From NCBI GenBank assembly GCA_009602735.1, contig WELA01003449.1, positions 481,647-540,071 of the forward strand: 58,425 nt of DNA. Reading direction: 5' to 3'. The notes below the pieces were generated by a model, which was not told the origin of the DNA, searched no databases, and saw nothing but the letters and a program-made list of their open reading frames with translations. The position numbers and the translations under genes are program-made. The DNA is from Mesotaenium endlicherianum (Eukaryota). How positions within the stretch are numbered: the stretch's first letter is position 1; every line of letters begins with the position of its first letter. This document shows, in pieces, positions 13,845 through 57,503 of the stretch.

Positions 13845-14605
13845 TGAAAGGGGCAGAGTGCCCTAGTGGAAGCGTAGTGACTCACGAGGAAAGGAACTAG
13901 TTGCCATCATACTAGAGAGTGCAGCGGCATATCACTAACAAAGCTTAGGAAAATTACTCAACATTTTGAGTAGCAAGAAACTGCTCACAAATGATGTAGG
14001 ATGAAAGGCCTTGTCATTACAAACCCGTAGAAATTTACAGAAGTGAAAACTGATAAGAAACAAAGAAGTTATGCCTATTTATAATTTTCTGCCTAAGTGC
14101 TCCTCCCTAGGAGGAAGCTACGGATTTTCCTAAGTGTTCGTCAAATCGTCCCTTCCAGAATATTCGTGAGTAAGCCAGATCAGTCTAATCTGACGTGTCG
14201 GGCCGAATTGACGTCCACATACATGCATCGACATTACTAGAATATTCTATCTTAGACGCGCTAGGCTAAATCGAAACTTCTAGGTAAATCGACCTAGTCG
14301 GCACTCCGCGTCAGCCGAACTTACGTGAAGGTTCGAGTTCATTCTAACGGGCCAGATCGCTCGACGCTGTCGGTCAATCCGACGGTCCTGCTCACCGCGA
14401 ATTAAGGACAGTCGTCAACCGATCTCAAAACTAATTAAACTTCAGAAATCCGTAACTCTCTCAATACTTGACCAAATTCGATGAACTTTATATCAAAATG
14501 ACCANNNNNNNNNNNNNNNNNNNNNNNNNNNNTTACAATCANTATACAATCAAAACATACCTTCATGAAACTCAAAAATGCACTTTATAAACCTATGACC
14601 TTACA
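13845..14605 (-). repeat. 3' LTR of family A element (contains a short N gap)
   Basis: tgaaaggggcagagtg...atgaccttaca on plus; highly similar to 19261-20004; next to the polypurine tract. Confidence 0.93.
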
Positions 14606-17600: not shown

Positions 17601-18276
17601 TTGCTCCATCTGATGACCTGGCCAGGGCCACCGAAACAAGGTACATCTCCTTCACCTGATTCGCCCTGCATAGCTTCTTAACTTGCAGGCTCGACAGAAG
17701 ACAGTTACTTGTGGTCGTATCTACCTCCACCTGTTTCGCTGTCTCCATTCGACCATCACGCCCTTGGACTTTCACTTGTCCTGTGCTCCAGTGCACTTGA
17801 GGGTTGGCTTTCCTTAGCCATGGTCGGCCCAATATCACCTCATGGTGACCCAACTCTGCCTGCTCCATAACTTCCTTACTCCGGTGCCCCGCTACTTCCA
17901 CGTGAATAGCTTCCGTAGGTGCACCACACTTGAGTCTCTGCCCATTTGCCAAAATTGCCTCCTTAGGCTCATAATGCTTCTGCACAGGGACTCGCCACTC
18001 TTTCACCAGCTTCTTGTGCACAAAGTTTGCACTTGCGCCACTGTCGACCATACACTTCGCATTGTTGCCGTCGACCACTCCTTCCACGATGATAGGCTTG
18101 TCAACGTCTCGTCCTTTGCTTCTCGGCAGGCTCCTGGGGATAACCTCCTTGTGAGTTCTCGTCTTCACGCCAGTAGACACCCCAGAACGACTTACTGGCG
18201 TCCTCCTTTTTCCTGCTGTTGAGGTTGCTTCGCCTTCACATGACAGTCTCGAGCCAGATGTCCAAGCTTGCCGCAA
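14593..18276 (-). CDS. pol: Pol polyprotein: aspartic protease, reverse transcriptase, RNase H, integrase, C-terminal chromodomain
   Basis: Uninterrupted 1227-codon frame with VDSGA (protease), [15 protein letters not shown] and FLDDIL (RT), [10 protein letters not shown] (RNase H), HH..H/C..C zinc finger, MDFIT, SDRD and QSERLN (integrase), HDVFHVS, and [21 protein letters not shown] (chromodomain). Probably expressed by frameshift from gag. Confidence 0.96.
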
Positions 18277-19223
18277 CTATAGCACGGTCCTCTCGGCTTG
18301 AAATTCTGCTGCCTGCGCTGGTACTGCACAAGTCCCAACTCCATGGGTACTGGACCTTGAACACTCGTGCTTGGCGCTTGAGATCCAAAGTGTCGATATC
18401 CTCCAAAGTTGTGGCTGCCCCACTGCCTCTGACTATACTCCACAGCGTCGACCCTTGTTGCCAATGCCATCATTTCTCCAAGACTGGTAGGGTCCTTGAG
18501 CGCCACTTCCTTGGCCACAGTTGGCTTGAGTCCCCTCTTGAACTTGTCCATCATCTCCGACTCGTGCATGGATGGACATTGAAGCACCAGCTCGTTGAAG
18601 CGCGATACATACTCCTGAACGCTTCCTCGCTGACGAAGGCGCACCAATAGATCTCGAGCGGTAGCCTCGGGTGCAATAGGTTGAAATTGCCTCTTCAAGC
18701 CTTCAAATAGCTGATCAACAGTAGCAGGAACTCCAGACAGCTGCTCTTCTCGTTCATACCAAGCTCCAGCACTCTTCTGCAGCAAAGTTATGACAAAGGC
18801 GACTTGCCTGTCGGGCGTGAGCGCAGAATACTCCATAAACTTCTTCACTCCAAAAATCCATTGATGAACAGGCGGCGATCCACGCTCTCCAGTATAAACT
18901 TCAGGCTTAGGCGCACGCACTCCTGATGCGGGTGGAATAACTGGTTGCACCACTGGGTTAACATGAATCGGTGGTACAACAGGTGCAGGTGCCGAACTCG
19001 TCGAAGCGGCGTTCCCCATAACAACTCGCACCATTCTCTCCACCTCCGCGCGCATATTTTGTTGAAACTGGGTGTAGACTTCTCCTCCAATTGCATTTGC
19101 CATTTGCCTTAGCATCGCCTGCATCTCTTGTTGCTCTCTGGTCATTGTTGGTGCTGCCTGCTGCCCCGCGCGCTCAACATGCTCAACATGTTCGCCTCCT
19201 CCAGCTGCCGGCTGCGACTCCAT
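18192..19223 (-). CDS. gag: Gag protein of family A element
   Basis: 343-aa ORF starting just after the [30 protein letters not shown] and zinc knuckle [14 protein letters not shown]. Confidence 0.94.
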
Positions 19224-19246
19224 AATATAATATGCAAACTAGCCCT

Positions 19247-19258
19247 GCTCCGATACCA
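19247..19258 (-). other. Primer binding site (tRNA-iMet type) of family A
   Basis: Minus strand reads TGGTATCGGAGC, 2 nt inside the 5' LTR. Confidence 0.85.
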
Positions 19259-19260
19259 GA

Positions 19261-20004
19261 TGAAAGGGGCAGAGTGCCCTAGTGGAAGCGTAGTGACTCA
19301 CGAGGAAAGGAACTAGTTGCCATCATACTAGAGAGTGCAGCGGCATATCACTAACAAAGCTTAGAAAAATTACTCAACATTTTGAGTAGCAAGAAACTGC
19401 TCACAAATGATGTAGGATGAAAGGCCTTGTCATTACAAACCCGTAGAAATTTACAGAAGTGAAAACTGATAAGAAACAAAGAAGTTATGCCTACTTATAA
19501 TTTTCTGCCTAAGTTCTCCTCCCTAGGAGGAAGCTCCGTTTTTTTCTAAGTGTCCGTCAAATCGTCCCTTCCAGAATATTCATGAGTAAGCTAGATCAGT
19601 CTAATCTGACGTGTCGGGCCGAATTGACGTCCACATACATGCATCGACATTACTAGAATATTCTATCTTAGACGCGCTAGGCTAAACCGAAACTTCTAGG
19701 TAAATCGACCTAGTCGGCACTCCGCGTCAGCCGAACTTACGTGAAGGTTCGAGTCCACACTAACGGGCCAGATCGCTTGACGCTGTCGGTCAATCCGACG
19801 GTCCTGCTCACCTCGAATTAAGGACAGTCGTCAACCGACCTCAAAACTATTTAAACTTCAGAAATCCGTAACTCTCTCAATACTTGACCAAATTTGATGA
19901 GGTTTATATCAAAATGACCACAAAAATGCACTCTACATTACTATACAATCAAAACATACTTTCATGAAACTAAAAAATGCACTTTATAAACCTATGACCT
20001 TGCA
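19261..20004 (-). repeat. 5' LTR of family A element
   Basis: tgaaaggggcagagtg...atgaccttgca; direct repeat of 13845-14605. Confidence 0.93.
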
Positions 20005-20605: not shown

Positions 20606-20919
20606 CAGTCGTTTCCGTTGACACGGGAAGGTGACAGGCGGTCCTGTCTCCATATAAGTTGGAGGGAGATGTGACAGTTGTGACAGGCAGCCCACCTTTA
20701 AATTTAAGTTGGAGGGAGTGGTAGTCTCTGATCACCATATTACCCACTCAACCTGCGCTCACACTCACTTGCTCTCCAACTCAATTTTTCCTTATATTCG
20801 CTCACACCAGGTATTCCACTCTTGGAACTCTCCCGATCGCGTCCCTCTTCATCAAGGGCACTCAGTAACGGCAAAATATCATGACTTCACTAACTGCATT
20901 GTGTTTATGATTGAGCAGG

Positions 20920-22587
20920 ATGACTCAAAAGTCGGAACTCAAGAGGAAGAGAAGGGCGGAAGAGGCACATGCAGAATACTTGCAGTTCCGTGGAGACATC
21001 GAATCATCTTCCATTACCGCTCGGGAATCACAACGACTCCAACAACAGCGGGAGGCACAGAAGAAGAAGGAGGAGGAGGAACAGGCCAGACTGAGGCAGG
21101 AAGAAATGGACAGAAAAGCTGCAGAGGAGGCCAAGAAAGCAGAGGAGGAGAGGCAAGCTGAGGAGAAGCGGAAGCAGCAGGCTGAAGAAGAAGAACAGAG
21201 GAGAATCAGCAGCTACCGCTACACGGTGCTGGGCAAGGGCTTTGATCTACTGGAGGAGGCCTTCAAGTATGCCCAGAGAAGTCGCAGTGAGTCGCAGAAG
21301 GAAATCCTCCAGAAGGAAGGGGAGACATCTGAAAACTTTGACAAGTATGTAGAGGTCGGCACAGGGCTCCTCCTCTACCACGATTACGCCAGGATGGTAG
21401 GATATACCATCGGAGAGGCCAAGGCAATGGCCCAGGTGAACGAAGCAGGAGCTGTCTCGATTCCTGGTATCTGGGGGGCAGATAGGGTCATCAGGATGAT
21501 CCCCATGGACGCGGACAGCTTCAAGGACTCAACACCCCACAACAGGTTCAAGGCCATGTACAATGAGGTGGAGAGGAGGAGCTGGGAATTCTTGGCCAGA
21601 GAAACCAGTCAGCTGGACTTTGCAGGGCACTGGTACCCTTGTACTCTCAAAAAGACAGACGCTGCCTTCTTCCAAAAGCCCACTGATTGGCGGTGGATGA
21701 CCATCAACATGAGGGACCAGCAGAATGACAGGGCGACGGATGAGGATTTCCTGACAGACCTAAACGGGAACATAGTATTGCCCCCTCACATTGCGGCTTG
21801 GGACCCAAGATTGGATGGAGTCAGAGACTGCATGAGCCAAGAGATGCAGGGGGACAGAAGCAGGGCCCGAGAGTCATTCTCCAAAGGGAAGCACGCTTAT
21901 GCCAAATGGGCAAGTAAGCAGGGGGAAAAGGACCTCTATGCGGTCCGGACTCAGCAGCCCCCACCAGCACCCAAAAGGGGAAGGTCAGTAGGATATTCTT
22001 TTTCTCGGGAAGAGCTGGAGCAGCGGACAGAGGAGACCCCAGAAGTCTCAGAGGAACCCGGGGACGGCGAGGAGGCGGAGTCGGAGGAAGACGAGGAGGA
22101 AGGCGAGGAGGAGGACACTAGCCCCGCCGTGATCCTGACACCTGCCACATCCCCTGTAAGGGAGAAGACGGGGTTGGCCCTGCAGCAACTCGCTGAAGAG
22201 GAGGATATCACTTGGCTGGGAACTGCCAGAGGACAGAGCCCATCTCCAGGCAAGGAGACCCAGTCAGACAGGGCAGACAGGAGGGCTGCTCGGGAGATAG
22301 CCAGAGGCCTGCCAGCATCTCCCTCGCAGAGAGGGCATGTACCCTTGGCTCATGTCATGCAACATCCTTCCGGGATGCCGGTATACGTACCTGTGAGTTT
22401 GAGGGCTGCCCAGGAGAAGGCTGCCTCCCTTCAGTTTCAGACTGTGCAGGAGGAAACGGCCCAGTTACTACGTTCTCCGCCGGGTCCTTACACGGAACCC
22501 CCTTCTCTGACAGGCTTCAAAAGACCCCAAGACAGGAGGAGGTCTAGCTCCCCTGAGCATAGGGCCTCAGGGATATCTCCCTCCTAA
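20920..22587 (+). CDS. Uncharacterised ~555-aa retrotransposon accessory ORF (charged coiled-coil N-terminus, globular middle, acidic low-complexity C-terminus)
   Basis: Long intron-less open frame (first ATG 20920) between the chromodomain remnant and the PPT; its 3' end is also present inverted at ~23700-23900 in the sister element. Confidence 0.72.
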   Translation: MTQKSELKRKRRAEEAHAEYLQFRGDIESSSITARESQRLQQQREAQKKKEEEEQARLRQEEMDRKAAEEAKKAEEERQAEEKRKQQAEEEEQRRISSYRYTVLGKGFDLLEEAFKYAQRSRSESQKEILQKEGETSENFDKYVEVGTGLLLYHDYARMVGYTIGEAKAMAQVNEAGAVSIPGIWGADRVIRMIPMDADSFKDSTPHNRFKAMYNEVERRSWEFLARETSQLDFAGHWYPCTLKKTDAAFFQKPTDWRWMTINMRDQQNDRATDEDFLTDLNGNIVLPPHIAAWDPRLDGVRDCMSQEMQGDRSRARESFSKGKHAYAKWASKQGEKDLYAVRTQQPPPAPKRGRSVGYSFSREELEQRTEETPEVSEEPGDGEEAESEEDEEEGEEEDTSPAVILTPATSPVREKTGLALQQLAEEEDITWLGTARGQSPSPGKETQSDRADRRAAREIARGLPASPSQRGHVPLAHVMQHPSGMPVYVPVSLRAAQEKAASLQFQTVQEETAQLLRSPPGPYTEPPSLTGFKRPQDRRRSSSPEHRASGISPS

Positions 22588-22672
22588 GGGCAGCAGGCTT
22601 GGGATAAGAGGGTCAGCACGCTGTTACTAGTGATAGTGTTGTCGAGGCGGCAACATGATAAGTTGGAGGGAT

Positions 22673-23391
22673 TGTAATGAATCAGTATACTGGTCGATAT
22701 AATATTCATTTAAATAATATAGTTAAATAAGTTCAGCCTGCTGAACTCTAGTTAATAATCAGTCTGCTGGACTTTATACTTAATATCAGTTTAATGACTT
22801 GGCCGGAAGTAGCAGGCTGAGGCCACCTTAAGTCAGCTTGCTGACACATTCTTTGACAGCCAGCTGACTTCCGTACTCGGTAGCAGCGAACTGCCTCAAT
22901 ATGCATCTAAGTGTGGTATGCTAGATGAATGGCCACATGACATCCCTATGATGGATGGCGATTCGGGATGACGGGAGATGGCGGTGGATTTGGTTAACCG
23001 AGGTCCTACCAACGTGGTTAACTCCCGGGTAGGCGGTGCCATCGCACTGACCGTTGAACAGTAAACTCATTCCATGTACATACGCTAGACATTGCTCTCG
23101 AGTTCGGCATTCGGAAACGAGGCCAACTCTCTTGTACAGCTTACTGAGAGAGATCTGAATCCAAGGCGAGAAGCCATTGATACGCACTGTCTTCTAACCT
23201 TGCTTATGTATGAGTTTACTGATTTGCATCATTGATGCTAGTATACTCGCATTTGACTTACAAGTGTTATTCCCTGCTAGTGTATTGTCCTTTGCCGTTT
23301 AACTAGTTAACGGAAATACCATAAGATTACTTGCTGATATAAAGATCTTTATTAATTGTTAATCGCCTATTTGGTAAGTCGATTCATTTCA
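22673..23391 (+). repeat. 3' LTR of plus-strand family B element
   Basis: tgtaatgaatca...gattcatttca with short inverted termini; matches the reverse complement of 25418-26131. Confidence 0.88.
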
Positions 23392-23905
23392 CCGGCTAAG
23401 TCAGTAAACTGATTATTTATAGAAAGTCCAGCAGACTCAATATCAACTAGAGTTTAGCAGGCTGAACTTATTTAACTATTATATTTAACTGAATATTATA
23501 TCAACCAATATAGTGATTCATTACAATTCCTCCAACTTAAAAGTTGTCGTCTCGACAACACTAACACTGGGTACATGGTTCCTCTAGCTGAAAGTGCTGA
23601 TCTGACTCCCAACACCTTTTGCATCAACACTGATACCTAACGGTGGGAATCACTAGTAACAGTGTGTTGTCCCTTCGGCCCTCAGCCTACTGCCATAAGG
23701 AGGGAGATGTCCCTAGGGCCCTATGGTCAGGGGAGCCAGACCTCCTCCTGTCTTGGGGTTTCTTGAAGCCTGGGGGGTCCGCGTAGGGGCCCCGCGGAGA
23801 ACGCAGTAACTGGGCTGTTTCCTCCTGCACAGTCTGAAACTGAATGGAGGCAGCCTTCTCCTGGGCAGCCTCAAACGGACAGGTACATATACCGGCATCC
23901 GACGT

Positions 23906-25383
23906 TTACTGACTGTTGCTGTCTTTTAAAGGCTGGTCTTTTCTCTCGACCTTTGGGAGGTGCTTGACTGGACACTGCTCTCTGAAGTGACCCGTCTGCT
24001 GGCAATGGAAGCAAACAGATTTTGCTGAGGCTGGTCTCGGCTTAGTCCTACCACCACCTCTTCCATAGCCGCCTCGAGAGAAACCACCTCTCCCTCTAGA
24101 CTGCATAGCATTATACTCATACTCATATTCATCACCCTGATCATCCTCAGCCTGGTCTCCTTCAATTGCATTGTAGGAACCGTGGGGCTTTTTGACAACC
24201 TTAGACACCAGAGCATTACGCTGGCGCTTGTGATTGAACTGCTGCTGATCCCAGGCATCAGCATCCTGGATCAAGTCAGCCAGTTTCTCATACTACTTTT
24301 CAGCAAAATGACCAGAGACTTTGGATTTCAAGCCATACATAAAGTATGCTATCCTATACCGCTCTGGCAAGTCTGGCTGCTTCATGTTGTTCTCTTAAAA
24401 CTTTTGAGCAAGCTCAGCAACTGAAGTGGTCTGCTTCAGTGTCAAGGAGATCATTGCATAAATAGCTTTCTCCTGCTGATTGATCACATCAAACTTCTCA
24501 TGCATTTTCTCGACAAACTCTACCCAAGTAGGGTCACCAAGTTGTTGAGCCTTACGCTCTCCTTTCCAATACAGCCACCAATCTGCTGCACTGCCTTTCA
24601 GTAGAGCATCATTGTGCCTGACCTTCTCGTAATCCTGCAATTCTGGGTAGTTCTCCAGCCACTGCTCAATATCAGCGAGAAACTTGATCAGGTAATACTT
24701 TTTGTTCCCCTCAGGATCATAATCCTCGGGAGGTTTTGGCTTGGGCTTACTAGGCCCTCTGCCACCACCACCAGTGGTTTGGGAACCCAGTTGGTCTCTG
24801 TCCCGCAGCAGAGACATTGTGATTCTTTTGTCCTCCTGTTGGGACTGATACATGCTCGCCATTTGCGATTGCATTTGCACAAATAATGCTCCCCAATCCA
24901 CAGTCTGAGGTGGGAGTCTAGCAAATGTAGCAGTAGCAGTGGCATCGACTCGCTGAGTAGTGTCCTCAACAGTCCCTCTCGCTCCTGCAGCAGCAATTCC
25001 TGCCGCATTCAGCCGGTCACAAATTTGACCTTGGGGCACATTGAGTTGTACAGCAGGAGGTGGGTTCAGAACATTGGCCCTTGGTGCCATACGTTCTTCG
25101 ACAGTGCGCTCGTTCGCTGACTGTCCTTCCCTCCATCTGTATCTTCAACAGCCTTTGCTAATCGTTCAACTTCTAATCTAGCACTCTCCTCCTCGGCCTG
25201 CTGTGCTGCGACTGCGGCAATAGCAGCTGCCTCATCTGCAGCCTCTCTAGCTGCAGTATCTGCCACTGCTTCAGAATAGGTACGGGTTCCCGCTACATGG
25301 CTTTCAGCCTGATTTTTGACATTCCCGTTATCCTGGTTCTCCATGTCTCGGGAGTTGCTAGTTTGAGACCTTGTCCTTACCAT
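23906..25383 (-). pseudogene. gag: gag of family B with one frameshift and two in-frame stops
   Basis: Fragments 25383-25066, 25090-24395 and 24274-23906; LKGSAADWW, PTWVEFVEKMHEKF, LKQTTSV and zinc knuckle CFHCQQTGHFREQC. Confidence 0.85.
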
Positions 25384-25417
25384 ACAAAGAAGACTGTGAA
25401 AACTGCTCCGATACCAC

Positions 25418-26131
25418 TGAAATGAATTGACTTACTAAAAAGGCGATTAACAATTAATGAAGATCTTTATATCAGCAAGTAATCGTTATGGTATTTTCTG
25501 TTAATTGATTAAACAGCAAAAGACAACACACTAGCAGTGGACAATACTCGTAAGTCAAATGGAAGTAAACTAGCATCAATGATGCAATCAGTAAACTCAC
25601 ACATAAGCAAGGCTAGAAGACAGTGCATATCAATGGCTTCTTGCCTTGGATTCAGATCTCTCTCAGTAAGCTGTACAAGAGAGTTGGCCTCGTTTCCGAA
25701 TGCCGAACTCGAGAGCAGTACCTAGCATATGTACATGGAATGAGTTTACTGTTCAACGGCCGGTGCGATGGCACCACCTACTCGGGAGTTAACCGCGTTG
25801 GTAGGACCTCGGTTAACCAAATCCACCGCCATCTCCCATCATCCCGAATCGCCATCCATCCTAAGGATGTCATTTGGCCATTCATCTAGCACACCACACT
25901 TAGATGCATATCTAGGCAGTTTGCTGCTACCGAGTACGGGAGTCAGCTGGCTGTCAAAGAATGTGTCAGCAAGCTGACCTAAGTTGACTTCAGCCTGCTG
26001 CTCCCGGCATTAAATTGATTATTTTTATAAAGTCCAGCAAACTCAATATCAACTAGAGTTTAGCAGGCTGAACTTATTTAACTATTATATTTAAATGAAT
26101 ATTATATCAACCAATATGCTGATTCATTACA
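25418..26131 (-). repeat. 5' LTR of minus-strand family B element
   Basis: 714 bp, TG...CA ends, adjacent to the PBS. Confidence 0.88.
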
Positions 26132-46649: not shown

Positions 46650-47695
46650 CGCGAGCGTGTGTCTGCGTGCACGTGTGCGTGCGAGTGTCTCTTCCTGGGC
46701 TTACGCTTGGCGCGCGTTTACCATGTCTAAGCAGTCGCACTCTTTGCTTGTGTGCGTGCGTCTCTGTGTGCGTGCACGTGCGTGTATGCACGACACGTGT
46801 CGCCCGCCCAGGCATGGCGCTGGCGCTGGCGGGGTGCGGCAGCGTGACGATGACAGACATCCCGGCGGTGCTGCCCATCCTGAAGAAGAACGTCAAGCGC
46901 AACCTCGCCAGCCTCAACCCCAAATTCAGGGCGGCGGCCGGGCCAGCTGGCGTCTTCCCGGAAGTCGGCAAGCTGAAGACGGGCCTCCTGTACTGGGGCA
47001 ACCCCAAGCACATCGCCAGCTACACCGACGCCAGCAAGGGTGCAAACCAGGACGCCAGCGAGGACGCCAGCAGGGATGCCAGCAAGGGCGCCAGCAAGGA
47101 CGCCAGCAAAGTCGGCAGCAAGGGCGGCAGCAAGCGGGCTGGCAAGGGCGACGCGGGAGGCAGCAGCAACATCAGCGGCAACAGCAGCGGCCAGGGCGTG
47201 GGCGGGGGTGGAGGGGGCGGGGNNNNNNNNNNNNNNNNNNNNNNNNNNNNNNNNNNNNNNNNNNNNNNNNNNNNNNNNNNNNNNNNNNNNNNNNNNNNNN
47301 NCGGGGGCGGGGGCGCGGGTGGGGCTAGGGGAGCATTTGACGTGGTGGTGGTGGCGGACGTCGTGTACCTGGAGGACATCGTGGAGCCCCTGATATCAAC
47401 GATGCGTGCGCTCGTGGACGAGCGCTCGGTGGTGCTGCTGGGCTACAGCCTGCGGCAGGCGGAGGCGCACGCGCTCTTCTGGGCGGCGCTGCCGCGCGTC
47501 TTCGACGTCGTTGCGGTGCCGCGCGCGGAGCTGCACCTCGAGTACGCGTTTGAGGGCGTGGATCTGCACATCCTGCGGCTGAAGAAGACCGACGCCGCCG
47601 ATGCCGCTGCGGCTGCCGCCGCTGCTCCTGCTGATGCTCCTGAGGCTGCGGCTGCGGCTCCGACTCCGACGTCGGCAGCTGCGGACCCAAGATGA
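44767..47695 (+). CDS. METTL21-family (Methyltransf_16) protein-lysine methyltransferase
   Basis: Exons 44767-44989 and 46812-47695 (N gap inside exon 2). Motifs HVGTTVWEAS, IELGAGCGIAG, VTMTD, LYWG and FDVVVVADVVY. Confidence 0.88.
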
Positions 47696-50504
47696 GGGGC
47701 CGTGCTGCATGTGAAACATGAAGGCAGACGAAAGGTCGAAGACGTGCTGCGTAGCCCCTTTGGTCAAGATGGGGGCCCCTGTTCTGATTGATTCCGTGCG
47801 CTTGTTGCAATTCGAGGCAAGGGTCCAGTCAGATGCAGCACGCAGGCTTCCTCGACCGAGCTAGCTTCTGGCAAGGCTCGACGGGCGCCACGAGGGCCTT
47901 GCTCGCATTGGCCGACGGTGGGAAGTCTTAGCTGTGTCGGATACATGTCTAGCGAGAAAGTGCTGGGTGAGCTGACATTCAACCATGGGTACGAATCATT
48001 CTTATCAGCTAGGCGCAAGACCCTCCTTGCCTTCCCCCTTCCGCTTCCCCCGGTTATATCTTTTCCGGCTGCTTCATCCTCCTTGGGGCCACCCCAAGTC
48101 AGCGATGGCAGAAGCCTTGAACTCCGAGGGACAGTCTCTGCCAACGCGCTCACCACGCCTTGCAGATGCTGTTGCTGGGCAAAGCCAATCGCCCGATGAG
48201 AGTGCGCATGCAAAACGTGCGGCAGTAGATATGGCGGCCCCAATTTTCACGTTTGATTGATAGATTTTTATGAGAACTTAGCCTGTGAGGAGAAGTTAGC
48301 CTGTGTCCAAGGTACTCACAGGCTCGACGTTTGGATCGTGTCAGGTTCATGTCTAGTTGCTGTTCTGAAGGAGAGGTTCTTGGAAGGAGCTGCCCCGGGA
48401 GTGCATATTGCACCTGAAATGTGGGCATGCTGCCAGGCTGGATTGGCTTCTCACTCCGCCCCGGTGGAGGCTGCAAGCACGCTCCGTAGTGCTTGCTATG
48501 AGTTGAGCACGTACCCCCACACAACACACTTATGTACCTGGGTTGCACACGTCAATTGTGATTAGGTCCGTATTTAAGCGTGTGGAGTTGTGACTGAAAG
48601 TTTTGACCTGATTTTAGTATTCTCAGCAAATTCTGACATCCATACGCAGTCGCTTTGTGCCTAAACATCTGCCGCCCAGACATGCACAGGATGACTAGGG
48701 GAGTGCATATGCCACGGTTAGATACTCAGATAAATAACATGAGCTTCGAAACTCCCGACTGAGTGCTCGAGAACATGTGCAGATTGAGCTAGGTCCTCTG
48801 AACAGCACTTCTCTCACAGCAACAAGAGACAACAAGGACTAGCTAGCTGTTCCACGTGCGGCATGCAGGTAGATTTATTGAAAGTACACAATACTTGCAA
48901 ACAATCTCGACTACATCAAAGCATACATGTGCACTTTGTGGGCTAAACAAAGCACACATCTAATATTGAAGGGCACATGTATCGATCCACATTTCAAATT
49001 CATAATAACTCGCTATTCCTACAGGTACTTGGTGAAGTAATTGCCAGGTCCACATGCACCCCTAAGTGCCTGTTTGTAGACACTTAAATAATATTTTGAA
49101 CAAAAACCGCTGTTTTTCTTCAGAATTTGTTGACAATTGTTAGAATGGGTAACTATCTGTGTTACACCCACTTACTCGAAGTTTCAAACTGTAACATGCA
49201 TTATTCCGGAAGATATTCACTTTTTTCACTTGAATGACCAAACTGGTGAAAATTGATAAATTCTACATTTTGTGCTTTGTGCAGCTCTCACTACAGATAC
49301 CACCCCTACTCAATACATGTCGAAATGAGATACAAATTGGTGAGCTTGCAGGTGACCCTAAAACAAAAACATGGGAGGTAAAAAAAGTAAATTTTATTAA
49401 AAGAGGAAGAAGTTATGTCCTCTCAAAGTTGGACAGGTGTCCAACTTCACACGCTTTAAGCTGGTGCGTCCGCAAAATGCGGCAGAGGTGTTGGAACAGC
49501 AAGGAGTTTGTGCAATGACCTTTATAAGGTTCAAATTGATGTACTCACAAAATTTCACACTTGTTCAAAATGTATTGGCTGAGACATGCAAGTTCTAGGG
49601 GTGACATTAAATCTGTCGACAACGCGCAAAAGTACCAATTCTTGTGTGACTTCAGCACTCATGGCAGGTTGCCCCAAGAGTACCACAATGATCCAATGGG
49701 GGTGAAATCTTGTAGGTGAGTGCAGCAATCTTTGATGAACACTCCAAAACTTGAAAAATTGGTTTTCAATATTAAATAGATAACTTATGACCCCTCAAAG
49801 TTGGACGCGTGTCCAGCTTTGCACACTTGAAGCTGCTATGTCGGTAAAATCCGGAGGCTTATGCATTTATTGGTCACCACTTTACATGTATTGGTTCCTA
49901 AGGTGTAAAAGTAAGTAAAGTCAAAGTCTTAGACCTGTTGAATGAGTATAAATTGAATAGTGCAATATCTGAAGTGCTTGAAAAAATCTGCGCAAGAAGT
50001 GCATTTTTCCAAATCAGAGTCTTTTTTTCACAACTTCATTGCACTGTAGTTTCTCACAGTAGGGTCTAATACCCTCATTGTTGGTCCTACATCTCCTGGG
50101 CATACTACAAACACCTCAGGATCTGCAATACTACGTTTGGTGACATATGTGTACCACTTACGTAAGAGAAAAATGAAGTTTTAGAAAAGCAATACTGCAT
50201 TTTTCTGCACTCTTGTACATTGCTTGTGGACATTGGAAGTTAAGGTTCTTATTGTTTCTACATTCTCATGCCTGCTTCCTACACAGGTACGAGCAAAGAA
50301 ATCACTCTTTTTTTTTCCGGACAGTAATTGATTAATCACATTTCAGTGAAGACAATTTAAAAAAAATGGAAATCTTATCTTGGATTGCCTGTATAAGGGA
50401 CACCCTCCTATCTACCATCTACCAGGCTGGGTACTTATACCCCCTAAAACCCGAAACATACAAAAGTAATGGGACTGTAAAGTGGGCTCAGCTATAATGT
50501 ATAG

Positions 50505-52156
50505 GCTAGGGCTATCACAGGAGAAATACAGCTTCTGCTCAACCTCCTCTCTAAGACCTACAGTCCAGAGATGGGACTATGGAATCCCAACGTTATATCA
50601 GACAGCAGCTCCCTAGAGATGCCCAAGCTGCTATTGCAAAAATGAAACCTGATGTGTATGCAAAGCTGGATCCTTGACAGGAAGCAAGAGAAAACAGAGT
50701 GACTCTATCCTTGGGGGAGACAGTAAGACAGAGGATAATTACTCTAGGTTTATTGTGCCCAGAGGGCCGTGTGGTAAGAGTGCAGCTAATAGGAGATGCT
50801 TCAGAATGGTATCGGAAAGTCATTCAGACCACTATGGCATGCAAGCTACTGACAAAGGACAACAGGTCTATGGCAAATTCTGCATTCAACAATTGCACCA
50901 TCCTAGTCTTTAAGGGCGACGACGACTACGTTAGCATTGCCACTCATGCGGAGAGACTCTTAGACGAGATGGAGCTACTAAGGAAAAACGGTGTGATGGT
51001 TGGAGGCGTGAAGTACATCATAAAGTTCTACCAGGGAGGAGACTATAAGTTCAGCAATGGACTCTTTGGGTTGAGCGGAGCTAGCTAAACATACCCGTGC
51101 CTCTGGTGTTATGTCACAAGTGATGACATCAAGGAGAGATGCGAGGCCGACCAAGCTCGCACATTGGCTGAGATGCAGGTTGCAGCCCACTGTGCAGATC
51201 ACGACAATCTTCCAATGACCTGCCCACACTGTGCGAAGACTTTGAGAATTGTATCAGACCTGCAACAAGATACAATGAAGACAACACGAGGCAGACCAAA
51301 AAAGGAGAGCACTCATGCGAGACTACAATATCAGAAGGTCACAAAGGACAGCGCCATAAGAAGGCACCATTGCTAAAAATAGAGCCTGCTGATTGTGTGC
51401 CGTGCAGCTTCATGTGCTACTAAGAGTAACCTCAACACTTTCTGAAAGAACTATTCATCCACATATTCCACCAGGAGCAGATGCAACTCAACAATTTTTT
51501 GAAGTACTATAGAAGGAGGTGGGAGTGACTACGTCTACAACTGCAGTTGCAGCATATGCAAAGACAGAGACCAAAAACAGGGCCCCAAAGCCTACCTTCA
51601 TAGGTCGAGAGTGTCGCCTATTCATAGAGCGGGTGGAGAAAGTGACAAAGGACCTCCTCTCTTCTCCAGATGATGTTGCGTTGAAAAACGCAACAAGACA
51701 TACAGAAGACATGGGATTGCTATCGTGAGTGCATGGGAGGGGGCACTATTGGATCCTCTGCCAGAGACAGACTCGCATGAAGCGAGGGAAGCAAAAGCTG
51801 CAAGGGTCCAACACCTGGCAGTGGAGTTTGAAGAGGCATATGTGAAAGCGGCAGCCGCACATCACATCACAAAGTACATGCACATCTGAAAAGCACACAG
51901 ACCAGCGATGATAGTAAGGCATGGAGACTTGGATCAGTTTAGTGGTGAGGGCATTGAGGCTCTACATCACTGGAGAAAAAAAACCAACACTAATAGAAGG
52001 AAATATGGAGTGGACAAGCTAGGCAGGCGATACACATTGGGCAGGTTAGCACAGAGTACAGGCCAAGAGGCATGTAGAAGGGCCATAGTAGGTATGGTAC
52101 CTTTGTCCAGAGATGAACGACAAAAAAGGAAGAGGGCACAACTTGGTATGCAATAG
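50505..52156 (+). pseudogene. RAG1/Transib/Chapaev-type DDE transposase, disrupted by stops and frameshifts
   Basis: Ordered motifs VRVQLIGDA (D 50795), FYQGGDYKF (D 51041), GLSGAS*TYPCLWC (51098-51109), HKGQ..PLL, PCS-HVLLRV, FIGRECRLFI, ITKYMHI*KAH (51881-51898) and HGDLDQFSGEGIEALH (E 51956). The start is uncertain. Confidence 0.8.
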
Positions 52157-52269
52157 CTACTTAGCAAGTATGGAATCGAAGCTAGCTAGGAGCAGCACAT
52201 ATGCAAATGTTACTTAATCTAAATTATGATCAACATGGTCATTCATGCATTTGTACATACATACACAAG

Positions 52270-53330
52270 TTAAGCAGGCTGGATATTTACCAGTGATATA
52301 GTTTTAGCTCTCTTCCTTGTCTTGCTCCCCGTACATGAGAAGCATATTTGATGAGGAGCTTTCAAAGAGTACTTTGCGGCAACCTTGGCCCGGACCTCTT
52401 TCATCATTGCCCTTGCTTCTAAGTTAGCAACTCTAGCAGCTGAGAGAGGTTGAGGTTGCCACATGAGAGCCCTCTCTGCTGCCTTCTCCTCATCACTCAC
52501 AAGTGCCCTCCTCTCATCTGCTTCTAAGTCCCTGGCAGCCCTTCTTTTGGCTTCCGCCTCTTGTGCTTCAAGCACACCCCTTTCTATGCTCTCTTTTTCT
52601 CTCTGGAGACCCTCTATTTCCAACTGCAGTAAAGAATGCTTAGCCGCAGATCTGCTTGTAACATATGATCCTTAACTTGTACCCCATGCTCTAGCATTTG
52701 CGCTGGATAATGAGCCAATCTAAGCACTATATGCCTCCTGCAATCGCCTATATCATGGGAGGCATGCCACTTCATACTGTCATAACAATGATCAGGTCCT
52801 AGAAGGACACATCCCCCTCTATCTAAAAGGGCAGAGGAAAACTTAAATGTAAGACTTACCTGACCAGATTCATTTTTCCTCCAGTCCATATAAAATGGAG
52901 GAACTATCCCCACTATCTCTCCAGATCCTCGAAATATCTTAGCAGCACCCCACCCAACCCCTCTTTGTACATGTTGAAACTCACAAAGACTGTTCAGATC
53001 CTGCAGTGACTAGCACACTCTCCTAATTGATCTTGAAATAAAAGGGTCACTCTTAAAATTTTGGTGAGCAACCTCTTCACCAAAGTTTTCAAACAAGCCT
53101 TAAAATAGCTCTTGTGGGACATTCTTGTATTCTAACGTTACTCTGGGGGACTGCATCTATTCTCTTGAACAATCTCTTCTGGTAGTTCTTAAGCCACACA
53201 TGGGGGTTCACCTCCACACATAGGGGTTCACCTCCACGGCCGTTGTGAACAACTTACCACAATCACAACTTCTAGCCTCTAGTGCTCGCTGAACTCCACA
53301 GTTGCTGCAGAACTTGGGCACTTTAGCCAT
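52270..53330 (-). pseudogene. Second transposon gene of unknown function (N-terminal CxxC..CxC motif, C-terminal coiled coil)
   Basis: ATG at 53330 gives MAKVPKFCSNCGVQRALEARSCDCGK; a 20-bp tandem duplication (~53194-53237) breaks the frame; coding-like fragments 52913-52614 and 52623-52270 follow on the same strand. Confidence 0.55.
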
Positions 53331-54545
53331 GAGTGGAGAGCAACTATGATCTCGAGTCGCTCAAAAACCTACCTGCTGGGTGAATAAGAGTCTCTTATGG
53401 CATATACCTAATTTTGATACCCCAACTACTTTTTCTGAATTTATATGACTGCTTGCAAGAGAAGTTACAAATGATTGTCCGTAGCACACACTACGTACCC
53501 CTTCCTGATTACAAGCTAATTGCGGTGTACATAATATTGTTCAATATACCGTTCGGCACAGGAGGGAAGAACTTTATGAGGAAGCTTTTGAATCTAAGAG
53601 TTTAGACCATAATAAACAGCAACTAAAGTTTGTATGTGAGGGAGATGAAAGAAACGCCATGGCTTCCACTCTCACCTAAGATTCTATCTTAATCCGCCTT
53701 CCTCTGGCTACTACTATGAAACGTACAAAGAACCTTAATTTATGCCAAGAGTATGTAGACGTGCACAGAAGACTGTACTGTTAGGACGACAAATTTAAGA
53801 GCCCTGCTTAGAACAACCAGTAAGTAATTAGAATTTAATGAAAAAAGAGGGGGAGGAGTTCCTAACGCGTGTGGCGCGGAAGTGTTTGATTGTCATGAGA
53901 TGTACGTCCGGACGCGAAAATCTGGTGTCCATAATTTGGCCCGCCTGGGATGCATGTGTCAGAAAATTAGCATGGTATTGAGTAGCTTCTACAATTCAGC
54001 AATGACGTTGGTTGCAGGTTGATCCAGCATTGGTCCATCTTGCAGAATATTGAAATATCCTCACGCTGCGAAAGTAGACCACGAATGCGGAACAATAAGG
54101 GTGACGATCCATACCATTTGAAATCAACTCATGGTACTTTGATAGCAAGCGGGGATAAAAACGCCTCCTTTGAGGCGAAGAAGATATGACTCATGTTATA
54201 ATGCAACGGCAAGGACCCCTTTACACCCCAATCAGAATTACATTTGCAATTTTCGCATACCTCCAAAAAGAAGAAAGAACAGTGCGCATACACCACTGGC
54301 AGTCTGACTAGCTACACTCCCGGTGCACGCCTTCCTCTTGGATTTGAAGGCCCAAAAGCAAAGGAACCCCTTGGCAGAAAGAAAACGTAATATACTTCCT
54401 CTCCGTCCCCCCGGTTGCACCCTTAACTTGCTGCTCTTCTTTCTCCTGCTTATGCATCTCCACATCTCCCCGGCCCTCCTCATGTCACGACTTCTGCATC
54501 TGAAATGTCTCTTACTTTCAATTTCTCGGTTCACGACTCCTTCCC

Positions 54546-57503
54546 TCACTTCATCACAAAGGACTTGGACCACGTCTTGCCGCCCGTGCTGCGCAATCCG
54601 ACACGGGGCAGCAAACAGCAAGGACGAGATAAGGTGAAGCTCTCGCTGCATGCACACGACGGAGGCCTCCGGACCCTGCTCGAAGATTCGGTGGGAAATC
54701 TCATGCTTGACATTCATTCCTGTCGTTAAGCCTCGATAACAGAAGCCTCTTCCTTCCGCCTCGGCCGTTTTTTAGAGTTCATGACTTGACGCCAACGCCA
54801 CAAGTGACGCTTACATATATGAAGAGGAGAAAACGCTAGGACGTCAAGATTTATCACGTCGGGCGTCTACTCGAACCGCACACGAGCAGCTACAAGCTTG
54901 GCGCGCGAGGTCGAGCCGACAATGGGCACAGACAGGTGCCAGGGTGGCGGTGCAGGCAGGAGAGAGAGCAGGAGAAGAACAAAGACTTGTGGAAAAAGCT
55001 CTCAGTAGGAATGCAAGCCCCCCACCCCCCCCTCCCCCCNGCGCTCCCCCCTGGCGCCCCCCCCTGCGCCCCCTACCTCCTTGACAGCACAGGAGCCTGA
55101 GAGAACTCTGAGGAAGGCAGACACGCTATACCGCATCACAGCATCGGGGAAAGGGAGGGCAAGCGCAAGCCCTCTCACGTGTAGTCGAGCCGGATGTCGA
55201 GGAAGCGGTTGAGCTCCGTGTTGCGCGTGACTCTGATGGTCCCCTCCACCACCTGGTCCTGGTCCAGCCCCACGGGCTCGTCGATGTACAGCACCGTCTG
55301 TGCGCGCGACAGGTGGGCCCCAGCCCCGCACCGCAAGCGCAAGACCGGCCGGGCGGCGTCAGATGACAGGCGAAGCGGGCGACAGGTGTCAGTCAACAGG
55401 AGGACCATAAGCCGGGCCGATTGGATTAGTCCCTTAACAGGCAATTAAACAAGCGCATGAACACCCCTCTCGCAGCCTGATCTGACAGCAGGCATACCCT
55501 CGCAGCGGGACTCAAATCTCCCCTGATTACATTCACCTTGGCAGTGGCGAAACGTGAGACGTGTGCAACATTGCAATTACAGCACCAGAGGAAAAGCTCC
55601 CCTGCCAGAGCTTTAACGCATCTGGACGCAGAAGACGGAGGGCGAGGAGATCGAGGGGGGCGTAGGGACTTATTCAGCGTACCTGGACCCAGTGGGTGGG
55701 CTCTTCCTCGGGCGCCGTCGTCAACACAACGCACTTCTTATCCCCCTTGCCCTTCCCCCCGCTGCCAGCTGGTTTGCCGTTGAGCTTGGGGCCCTGGGGT
55801 GTGGACGCGCTGCCACCTGTTGCGCCGCCGCTTCCTGATGCTGGCTCCTGTGCCGGGCTCGCACTGCTGCCAGGTGTCGCATCGGCGCTCGACACCGCGG
55901 AGACCGCGGGCGCCGCCGCTGCGGGGCCGCCCGGCGAGGGGCCCTCGAAGGAAACGTCGAACCAGAGCGCAAAGCCGTGCAGGGGGGCTGCGCACACGCG
56001 CGCGCGCGCACAAAGAGTGCGAGCGGTTTGAGGCGGGGACGTCGCAGACGACAGTGTCCCACGTGTTGTGGTGCGTAAAGGTGAGCGCTAGCAGGCCTTG
56101 GTGGGGATGTTGCAGAGAATTGAGTGTTCTTTCTGAATTGGCATGTGAGTGTGCATGTCAGCAAGGAGAGTGACGAAATACGCATGCATGTGCATGCAAA
56201 CGTCCGCACACCCTCATGCATACGCACACACGCGCACGCACGCACGCACGCACATGCACACTCCTCAAAGTACAGGCATAGAAGCACGTACGAGGAACAG
56301 GAAAGAGAGGACACACACAAACACACACATACACACAGAGTGAGAGACACACACAAAGAGAGGAATAGAGGGTGAGAGTATTGCGCACCCATCATCATGG
56401 ACGAGACAGAGAAGCTGGTTGTGATCTCGCTGATGTCCTCCACCGTCACCGTCTTGCAATCTATGGTCTTGATCTGCACACACACACACACGCATGCATA
56501 CACGCACCCCAACACACAGGCCCACAAACACGTAAGAATACAGAGGCACACCGACACAGGCTCACACACACACACGCGCAGAGAGACACGCAAAGATGTA
56601 TGACGGTCAAGGGAAAAGCGAGGCCCTCACATTCATACACACATCGGCATTCACGTGCAGGCACACAAAGACGTAGGCTGGAGACGGCAGCAGCGCCGTC
56701 AGATGCGTCAGGTGGGCTGCCTTGCTGGCAGCAGCTGGACTTAGTCGGCTGCCAGGTGGCCACTCAGAAGCTGCTGCTGTGCATATCAATGGCCAGGTGG
56801 CCAAATGGCCAGTTGGCCATGTGAGCACTCTGATGTACTCCCAAGAGCTCACGACTGAAGCGGTGGAATGCATGCGCCCCACTTCTCCAAGCAAGCAAGC
56901 ATAACAACAAGCCAGTAGGTGGCTTTCTGAGTCTCATCACTTATCAATAAATGATGATGATAAACGATGGAATGATTGAGGGCGGAAGCACAAGAGAGAT
57001 GGAGTTGGTACGCAAGTGGGAGAGGAGCAGGAAGGAGAGTGCTGACGCCCTGTAGGAGGTAAGAAGCCCCCCATCGCCCATAAATGTAGCGCAGTGTCTG
57101 GAGTTGAGGAAAAAGAACTCAATTCTGATAACTCTGCAAGCAAAAGGCAGAGCAAACAAAACAGCTGCTGCAAGGCGCAAGTGCAGGACGAGAACAACGG
57201 CAGGAGTACCGGGGGGGAGGAAGGAAGAGAAGGAAGAGAAGGATGAGAAAGAGGGGGAGAAGGAGGGAGAGGAGGAGGAGGCCAAGGAGGAGGATGAGGA
57301 GGGCGAGGATGAAGCATGAGATGAGGACGATGAGGAGAGAGAGGAGGAGGAGGACGATGAGAAGGGAGAGGAGGAGGAGGAGGAGGAGGAGGAGGAGGGA
57401 GTGCTCACGAGGGCGGGCCACGAGAGGATGTTTTCGGTTGCGACGCTCTCCACGCACGGCTCGCCAAAGAAACACTTCTTGGCCGCCGGAATCATGGCCG
57501 ACA
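54546..57503 (-). CDS. PRMT6: Protein arginine N-methyltransferase 6-like (3' part; 5' exons lie beyond the window)
   Basis: Five in-phase exons on minus: 57503-57409, 56473-56389, 55987-55683, 55297-55179, 54588-54546 (TGA). Motifs EPCVESVATENILSWP, APLHGFALWFDV, LTTAPEEEPTHWVQT (THW loop), NRFLDIRLDY and KSFVMK*. Confidence 0.9.

What the first reader, a model, noticed from the sequence alone, without database searches (positions are those of the whole stretch)
50505..52156. RAG1/Transib-like transposase relic in a plant-lineage genome
Seen: stitching the broken plus-strand frames gives, in order, VRVQLIGD, FYQGGDYKF..GLSGAS.TYPCLWC, HKGQ..PL, PCS-HVLLRV, FIGRECRLF, ITKYMHI.KAH and RHGDLDQFSGEGIEALH. 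Known: this parallels the RAG1 core series SCDG (D600), GYDEK..GLEASGSVYICTLC (D708 + CxxC), KGV..KPF, DALH, MNGNFARKL, ITNYFHKTLAH and DGSIGAWASEGNES (E962); the same signature is shared by Transib and Chapaev transposases. Inference: these clans are described mostly from animals plus a few fungi and protists as far as I know, so a copy between plant-type genes may be an undescribed lineage. The ORF track shows only short fragments, so annotation would probably miss it.
Basis: partly seen in the sequence, partly recalled or inferred. Interest (0 to 1): 0.9.

Follow-up and report, generated by a model that had tools for sequence, protein, structure and literature searches.

The report
Two-gene RAG1-like transposon in green algae
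This is a decayed 4.9-kb jumping gene whose intact green-algal relatives are predicted to fold like RAG1, the enzyme that shuffles antibody genes, and which carries a second, facing gene of no known family that likely helps it move, a likely undescribed parallel to the RAG1-RAG2 pair.

Summary
Observation confirmed and extended. The motifs are one broken transposase gene (about 50452-52156, +) inside a 4,908-bp multicopy element (49051-53958) ending in CACATGCAYCCC inverted repeats; host-gene flanks are joined to it in public contigs, so it is no contaminant. Its closest relatives (about 30% identity) form a supported clade; the 5 of 17 clusters looked up that carry an organism name are green algae (Pterosperma, Cymbomonas, Mesostigma). 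An intact member folds like the RAG1 core (Z 24; ProtoRAG and HzTransib Z 21). The clade has an extra H-CxxC-H zinc finger in the insertion domain and no Chapa domain hit; grouping with Chapa-bearing proteins is rejected (AU p 0.004). RAG1, Transib, CACTA, Plavaka and Lanisha sequences were not in my trees, and plant Transib-like proteins, Plavaka and Lanisha are already reported. The scan noted a different algal CMCT element on other DNA. Verdict: likely new two-gene lineage of the CMCT/RAG1 clade.

The parts
49051..53958 (+). whole element, 4,908 bp, decayed, multicopy
   Evidence: DNA run X12 depth about 70 in both flanks and 203-1292 inside; X10 45-47 versus 266-894; termini
49051..49062 (+). 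left terminal inverted repeat CACATGCACCCC (inferred end)
   Evidence: 11 of 12 bases match the right end; depth rises only from the bin starting 49082, and no loose ends were listed at 49051, so this end is not pinned independently
53947..53958 (-). right terminal inverted repeat CACATGCATCCC
   Evidence: 3 contigs run on into unlike flanks (agreement 0.56) exactly behind 53958 in X10 and X12 (one sample)
49049..49050 (+). candidate 2-bp target-site duplication TC (left copy; right copy 53959-53960)
   Evidence: 3-, 4- and 5-bp duplications do not fit; one site only, 1 in 16 by chance
49100..49108 (+). exact RSS-type nonamer ACAAAAACC, 42 nt behind the terminal CACATGC; possibly chance
   Evidence: only match in the window, 0.36 expected window-wide; reads of another copy show a different second letter (X21); no counterpart seen at the right end
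49382..49854 (+). two subterminal direct repeats of about 100 bp (49382-49482, 49754-49854; 71% alike)
   Evidence: (family D13)
50452..52156 (+). transposase pseudogene, RAG1-type core: D 50795, D 51041, CxxC 51098-51109, LH near 51408, HxxxxH 51881-51898, E 51956; broken by stops and frameshifts
51188..51342 (+). clade-specific extra zinc finger (H...CPHC...H) inside the insertion domain
   Evidence: H/C/C/H in 40, 41, 40, 41 of 41 clade rows; the two C in 1 and 0 of 23 other rows; this part of the profile hits C2H2 fingers, best E 4e-7
52270..53330 (-). second gene (ORF2) pseudogene, convergent with the transposase: N-terminal CxxC..CxC, alpha/beta middle, helical C-terminus; start and end inferred
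   Evidence: profile of five relatives' ORF2 matches 53138-52653 at E 8e-12, 40 bits, shuffles at most 4.1 bits; frames
51229..51595 (-). 367-nt CT..AC joint, read as a GT-AG intron of a minus-strand transcript that runs antisense over the transposase
   Evidence: contigs of X1 and X17 (kind not on record), not listed for DNA runs X10/X12; polyA run X21 has first mates mostly on + here and over the neighbouring minus-strand gene

Best explanation
The stretch is a decayed copy of a two-gene cut-and-paste DNA transposon whose transposase is predicted to have the RAG1 core fold and whose second, convergent gene likely encodes a helper for transposition. Shown: multicopy 4.9-kb element with CAC..GTG ends, a DDE/CxxC/HxxxxH transposase gene, an extra zinc finger shared by its clade, and a partner gene conserved in place in relatives. 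Inferred by analogy with RAG1 and Transib: a transposase dimer binds the CAC ends, nicks, leaves hairpins on the donor flanks and inserts the element with a short stagger (perhaps 2 bp); the extra finger adds DNA contact. Inferred for ORF2 (about 0.5): a zinc-ribbon plus alpha/beta protein that binds the transposase or the subterminal DNA, as RAG2 does for RAG1 or the Myb protein for Harbinger (recalled); alternatives are an anti-silencing factor (0.25) or a role through overlapping 3' ends (0.15). This copy is dead: both genes are broken and CpG is depleted.
For: Motifs and profile; 433 relatives at E<=0.001, best 2e-31; relic aligns over 423-467 columns at about 30% to P0018/P0019; clade of 47 of 98 rows with support 100, 41 of 64 rows SH-aLRT 95 with the finger columns removed, 20 of 34 rows 99/95; fold of P0019 pLDDT 83.5, Foldseek E 2e-16 and Z 24.1, rmsd 3.7, 455 residues to RAG1, Z 21.4 BbRAGL, 21.1 HzTransib, 11.2 P element; termini and depth; ORF2 faces the transposase in L001-L005, 3' ends overlapping by 31-96 nt, and matches the window; Cymbomonas holds several near-identical transposase genes on different contigs.
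Against: L001-L004 share one accession prefix, so ORF2 linkage rests on about three independent sources (that assembly, L005, the window). L012, a likely clade member by motifs, has a convergent ORF that is not shown to be homologous (hhalign E 0.17). No termini were found in the 18 related loci, so TIR and duplication rest on one insertion. The left end is not pinned by loose ends. The fold is of a relative, not of the relic, and the PDB holds no Chapaev or CACTA hit to compete with RAG1.
Confidence: 0.8

Rival explanations
1. It is an ordinary Chapaev element that has lost its N-terminal Chapa domain.
For: The best word-index hits of the catalytic region were P0002/P0003, which carry RAG1_imp_bd (read as Chapa, per PMC4411706) and DUF1280; the three Chapaev motifs C(2)C, LH, H(4)H of PMC4079192 and CAC..GTG ends are present.
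Against: AU test rejects a tree joining the relic with P0002, P0003 and P0144 (p 0.004); 0 of 61 relatives scanned hit RAG1_imp_bd; 3-4-bp duplication does not fit; extra finger absent from these proteins. Only three Chapaev-type rows were available, and their label is my inference.
Confidence: 0.1
2. It is a Transib or RAGL (ProtoRAG-type) transposon, with ORF2 a diverged RAG2L.
For: Best profile and fold hits are RAG1 and BbRAG1L; convergent two-gene layout as in ProtoRAG (PMC9435367); CAC end and a nonamer-like sequence; its sister group in my trees shares motifs, by eye, with the 'bacterial Transib' CthTransib_0091 that PMC9435367 puts at the root of RAG1L plus Transib.
Against: Only 12-16% structural identity to RAG1 and 10-12% to HzTransib; HzTransib not among profile hits at E<=1; no 5-bp duplication; CTT1-like tail in 0 of the clade proteins checked versus 8 of the others; ORF2 is about 300 aa, modelled as a small alpha/beta domain with helices, and RAG2 is not among its matches.
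Confidence: 0.1
3. It belongs to a plant CMCT lineage already named (Lanisha or Plavaka) or already filed in Repbase under another name.
For: Lanisha (moss) and Plavaka (algae, moss) are CMCT lineages of the green lineage (PMC12730594, PMC8245031, PMC13519894).
Against: No Plavaka or CACTA Transposase_21 Pfam hit in 61 relatives at E<=0.01; Bostrychia Plavaka are 17-19 kb with three other accessory genes (10.1101/2025.02.11.637652). Lanisha's sequence and description could not be read.
Confidence: 0.15
4. ORF2 is a passenger or part of another element, with no role in transposition.
For: No family, no fold, no binding test; few independent loci; the sister group carries a different convergent gene.
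Against: Kept in the same place and orientation beside transposases that are only 25-46% identical, itself 24-38% identical between loci, and inside the same termini in the window.
Confidence: 0.12
5. Contaminant join or chance motifs.
For: None found.
Against: Contigs with no differing letter span the left junction (47500-49240, one sample) and the right junction (53780-55000; also 52933-54588 in another study); inner parts are identical in three further studies; 19 listed holders from 6 studies are one organism label; shuffle controls.
Confidence: 0.01

Closest known systems
RAG1 / RAGL (ProtoRAG, AanRAGL) transposons
   Same: RAG1 core fold (Z 21-24), DDE + CxxC + HxxxxH, CAC ends, two genes; convergent as in ProtoRAG
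   Different: 12-16% identity only; partner is not a kelch-PHD RAG2L; extra zinc finger; no CTT1; no 5-bp duplication
Transib (HzTransib; subgroups I/II and 'bacterial Transib' of PMC9435367)
   Same: same fold (Z 21.1) and catalytic series; CAC ends; the sister group in my trees resembles CthTransib_0091 by motifs (by eye)
   Different: canonical Transib is a one-gene 3-4-kb element with 5-bp duplications and CACAATG..AAAAAAATC ends (PMC1131882); different first-D and second-D motifs; extra finger; second gene
Chapaev / Chapaev3
   Same: very similar second-D/CxxC region (44-51% over 39 aa), C(2)C, LH, H(4)H, CAC..GTG
   Different: no Chapa/RING N-terminus (coiled-coil instead), grouping rejected (AU p 0.004), second gene, duplication of 3-4 bp does not fit
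Plavaka and Lanisha (CMCT lineages known from algae and moss)
   Same: CMCT clade, green-lineage hosts, accessory genes in Plavaka
   Different: no Plavaka Pfam hit; different size and cargo; Lanisha could not be compared

Membership tests
CMCT clade (PMC12730594) | DDE with C(2)C and H(3-4)H between second D and E | tested here: met
   all present in the relic and in 38-41 of 41 clade rows where aligned
CMCT clade (PMC12730594) | 5'-CA..TG-3' termini | tested here: met
   CACATG..CATGTG, right end pinned at 53958
CMCT clade (PMC12730594) | 2-5-bp target-site duplication | tested here: inconclusive
   TC on both sides, one insertion, left end inferred
Transib | RAG1-core fold | tested here: met
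   relative P0019
Transib | 5-bp duplication (PMC1131882; exceptions of 2-3 bp in 10.64898/2026.08.26.747230) | tested here: not met
   AGGTC versus TCAGA; one old insertion, and the feature has published exceptions
Transib | heptamer + 23-bp spacer + nonamer TIR | tested here: not met
   only 12-bp repeat; nonamer on one end at 42 nt
Transib | nests among Transib transposases in a tree | not testable with these tools
   no canonical Transib sequence could be fetched as a stored protein
RAGL / ProtoRAG | linked RAG2L (kelch-PHD) gene | tested here: not met
   ORF2 about 300 aa, no kelch Pfam hit, model is a small alpha/beta domain plus helices, not a six-blade propeller
RAGL / ProtoRAG | CTT1 C-terminal tail | tested here: not met
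   pattern absent from the clade's stored proteins, present in 8 of the other rows; pattern is mine
Chapaev | N-terminal Chapa zinc finger (PMC4411706) | tested here: not met
   0 of 61 relatives hit RAG1_imp_bd, P0002/P0003 do; P0019 model has a long N-terminal helix
Chapaev | groups with Chapaev transposases | tested here: not met
   AU p 0.004 with three Chapaev-type rows only
Chapaev | C(2)C, LH, H(4)H motifs and CAC..GTG termini (PMC4079192) | tested here: met
   shared with other CMCT lineages, so not diagnostic
CACTA/EnSpm and Plavaka | Transposase_21 or Plavaka Pfam domain (families recalled) | tested here: inconclusive
   no such hit for the relic or 61 relatives; no reference sequences for a tree
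Lanisha | similarity to the Lanisha transposase and structure | not testable with these tools
   supplements and Repbase report not readable

The most novel reading that the evidence does not exclude
Green algae carry their own ancient branch of RAG1-fold transposons in which an unrelated, new-fold protein encoded tail-to-tail with the transposase acts as an obligatory second subunit: an independent invention of the RAG1-RAG2 arrangement, on a branch next to the group placed at the root of RAG1L and Transib, with intact two-gene members still available for reconstitution.
Probability: 0.25. Interest if true: 0.85.

Novelty: new variant of a known kind. Interest (0 to 1): 0.62.

Why it matters
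The origin of V(D)J recombination is read from a few RAGL and Transib elements, and the step at which a RAG1-type transposase gained a partner gene is open. A diverse green-algal clade with the RAG1 fold, its own zinc-finger insert and a conserved convergent partner that is not RAG2 adds a missing branch for rooting that tree and a natural test of what a second gene does for such an enzyme. Intact members (Pterosperma transcript P0019; loci L002 and L004 with both frames open) make it testable. It also marks many 'hypothetical proteins' in prasinophyte and streptophyte algal annotations as transposon genes.

Tried and rejected
No whole genome is held, so no genome-wide copy consensus, copy count or empty site. 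Single-sequence searches of the relic were weak: Pfam DUF1280 E 0.03-0.19, PDB RAG1 E 0.5, word-index search 0 hits, 2 hits for one region, profile word-index search only itself. Viral contigs: nothing in 3 scans. Prokaryote genomes: nothing for P0019 (close relatives only). I first read ORF2 as Myb/SANT-like with an intron at 52823-52859; rejected, because that stretch is coding and aligned in the ORF2 profile and Pfam shows no Myb. ORF2 family or fold: none in Pfam, ESM Atlas best 0.80, PDB profile E>=0.4, Foldseek PDB and BFVD no match at E<=0.001, VIA wide best Z 6.8, with WRKY-type domains at Z 5.2 and 4.9 as a weak lead; model mean pLDDT 64.8 from 6 sequences, core about 50-220 above 70. 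The complex prediction of transposase with ORF2 was not available, so binding is untested. The convergent gene of the sister-group loci (weak chromo/SAWADEE, E 0.1-0.17) is not detectably related to ORF2. No terminal repeats found in L001-L018. No listed holder run is on record as RNA. Literature: 'RAG1-like + transposon + green algae' 0 papers, 'Transib + streptophyte' 0, 'Chapaev + algae + genome' 9, none describing this clade in the three read in passages; judged from listings except for the papers cited. PMC3093488 not held. Repbase, the Lanisha supplement and the plant entries after Capsicum in the PMC9435367 supplement (file cut) could not be seen and may bear on novelty.

Full report
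Host context. No genome is held for the window. Neighbouring genes are of green-plant type: a vacuolar H+-pyrophosphatase exon matches the solved plant enzyme at E 4e-103 against 2e-56 for a bacterial pump, a Deg protease exon matches plant Deg9/Deg2, and a PRMT-like gene lies right of the element (weak). Repeat-rich introns and 40-66% GC suggest an alga; a streptophyte alga is my inference, not tested.

The observation. All 16 motifs searched are present once and in order over three + frames with two internal stops in the main series. Alone, the relic scores weakly: RAG1 at E 0.5 in two collinear pieces, DUF1280 at E 0.03, ESM Atlas clusters with RAG1_RNase_H at 0.92 and DUF1280 at 0.93. A full HMMER scan gave 433 proteins at E<=0.001, best 2e-31 (the best 150 returned). 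A profile of 43 of them, without window sequence, covers the window collinearly from 50452 to 52141 with 188, 100, 40, 14 and 6 bits; 100 shuffles reach 1.5. Both D, the E, CxxC, LH and HxxxxH are retained in the relic.

The element. In DNA run X12 contig depth is about 70 in both flanks and 203-1292 between about 49.1 and 54.0 kb; X10, the same sample, shows the same step. Depth is a sum over contigs, not a copy number; up to 16 contigs cover single sites, so ten or more related pieces is a fair reading. 333 of 522 contigs laid are under 95% alike and C>T plus G>A make 359 of 1009 changed places; CpG observed/expected is 0.2-0.6 inside against about 1.0 in the gene to the left: an old, likely methylated family. 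Three contigs run on into unlike flanks exactly behind 53958. The reverse complement of that end, CACATGCATCCC, matches CACATGCACCCC at 49051 in 11 of 12 bases; these are the only two matches in the window, although the pattern was chosen after the fact and 0.99 matches are expected window-wide with one mismatch. The left end was not pinned by loose ends. TC lies on both sides; longer duplications do not fit. Contigs without a differing letter join host flank and element at both ends, and other copies carry indels at the frame breaks 51339, 51406, 51685 and 51735.

Relatives. The closest proteins are about 30% identical over up to 470 columns. Of 17 clade clusters looked up, 5 carry an organism name, all green algae: Pterosperma (transcriptome, 762 aa), Cymbomonas (two clusters, several genes on different contigs) and Mesostigma (two clusters); 12 are unnamed metagenome or assembly proteins. 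Trees: one search used 98 rows (28 near-duplicates or repeats skipped first; of 153 with a hit, those covering 70% of the core) and gave a 47-row clade with the relic at support 100. One search dropped 41 rows (long branches, gappy, subsampling), added 7 locus proteins and removed the finger columns: 41 of 64 rows, SH-aLRT 95. on 34 rows gave 99/95. The other side holds three Chapaev-type rows (P0002 and P0003 have RAG1_imp_bd and DUF1280; the label is my inference from PMC4411706, passages) and a group with a Nematostella protein, often with a CTT1-like tail. Joining the relic to the Chapaev-type rows is rejected (AU p 0.004). The trees are unrooted and lack RAG1, canonical Transib, CACTA, Mirage, Plavaka and Lanisha, which I could not fetch. 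The clade marker is an inserted H..CxxC..H finger in 40-41 of 41 rows, with the cysteines in at most 1 of 23 others; that part of the profile hits C2H2 fingers.

Fold. The clade profile hits RAG1 at E 1e-12 and BbRAG1L at 6e-11; HzTransib is not listed at E<=1. The model of P0019 (pLDDT 83.5) matches RAG1 (Foldseek E 2e-16; Z 24.1, rmsd 3.7, 455 residues), BbRAGL (Z 21.4), HzTransib (Z 21.1), then P element (11.2) and Hermes (7.7). No Chapaev or CACTA structure appeared, so the fold places the clade in CMCT/RAG1 but does not make RAG1 its nearest kin.

The second gene. A metagenome scan gave 18 loci. L001-L005, of the relic's clade (L002-L005 on the tree, L001 encodes P0022 by its length and start), each have an open frame of 200-320 codons facing the transposase, 3' ends overlapping by 31-96 nt; these proteins are 24-38% identical to L004's. 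Their profile finds the window's minus strand at 53138-52653 (E 8e-12, 40 bits; 200 shuffles at most 4.1), inside the termini and downstream of the transposase. L001-L004 share one accession prefix, so there are about three independent sources. L012 has a convergent frame that is not shown to be related. L006-L011, L013 and L014 (two near-identical sets, sister group) have a different convergent gene with a weak chromo-like part; L015 ends too early, and L016-L018 showed none within their contigs. ORF2 has no Pfam, Atlas, PDB-profile, Foldseek or VIA match above background; its model is a cysteine-rich N-terminus, a five-to-six-strand alpha/beta core and helices, not a RAG2-like propeller. Binding to the transposase is untested.

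Expression. In polyA run X21, 93 reads were laid (78 at 99% or more), first mates mostly on +, as over the neighbouring minus-strand gene, so the RNA is likely minus-strand; contigs of X1 and X17 skip 51229-51595 with CT..AC ends. A weak spliced transcript thus runs in ORF2's direction and antisense over the transposase; it may start at ORF2's promoter or run on from the PRMT-like gene. X24 shows both mate directions.

Mechanism. Shown: anatomy, catalytic residues, fold of a relative, linkage of ORF2. Inferred: RAG1/Transib-type cleavage with flank hairpins (expected for Transib in PMC1131882, passages), short duplication, extra DNA contact by the finger, and a helper role of ORF2 (about 0.5).

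What is in print. PMC9435367 (whole text; supplement first part and passages, file cut) reports 39 plant Transib-like proteins, naming angiosperms, RAGL in a pelagophyte, and roots its tree on 'bacterial Transib'; its CthTransib_0091 protein shows, by eye, the motifs of my sister group. PMC12730594 (passages) defines CMCT. PMC8245031 and its preprint (passages; supplements unavailable) name Lanisha in moss. PMC13519894, 10.1101/2025.10.09.681428 and 10.1101/2025.02.11.637652 (passages) report Plavaka in algae. PMC4079192 and PMC4411706 (passages) define Chapaev; 10.64898/2026.08.26.747230 (passages) shows Transib duplications of 2-5 bp; 10.1101/2021.09.26.461848 (passages) found few Transib. 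Searches gave no paper; searches listed none on a green-algal two-gene RAG1-fold element. Repbase could not be checked, so I put the chance that the lineage is undescribed at about 0.65.

Verdict. A real, dead copy of a CMCT/RAG1-fold transposon; likely a new lineage marked by an extra zinc finger and a conserved convergent partner of unknown family. New variant of a known kind; interest 0.62.

Noticed in passing
window 13845-20004: Ty3/gypsy LTR retrotransposon with 92.6% identical LTRs, an open 1227-codon pol frame and a gag frame on the minus strand.
   Followed up: no
window 20900-26130: Second gypsy-like relic: Ty3_capsid hit at 24398-25144, a 124-bp direct repeat 23402/26008, and an unexplained 558-codon + frame at 20911-22587.
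   Followed up: no
L006-L014: The sister group (AT-rich metagenome loci) also has a convergent second gene, with a weak chromo/SAWADEE-like N-terminal part, not detectably related to the algal ORF2: possibly a second, independent partner gene.
   Followed up: partly
PMC9435367 supplement, CthTransib_0091: The 'bacterial Transib' used to root RAG1L and Transib has, by eye, the motifs of a group that includes a Nematostella protein (P0038) and comes from a short contig of a metagenome-assembled genome; an animal-host origin of that contig is worth checking.
   Followed up: no
P0180 (Mesostigma gene model): A 2844-aa model joins leucine-rich repeats, a transposase of this clade and a guanylate cyclase domain; likely an insertion fused by annotation.
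   Followed up: no
L002:2-1306 (-): A further 435-codon frame upstream of the transposase, divergent, no Pfam match; possible third cargo gene.
   Followed up: no
window 49100-49108: Exact RSS-type nonamer 42 nt behind the left terminus; another copy differs at one letter.
   Followed up: partly
window 53194-53233: 20-bp tandem duplication in this copy that breaks ORF2's frame; absent from 2 contigs of other copies.
   Followed up: yes
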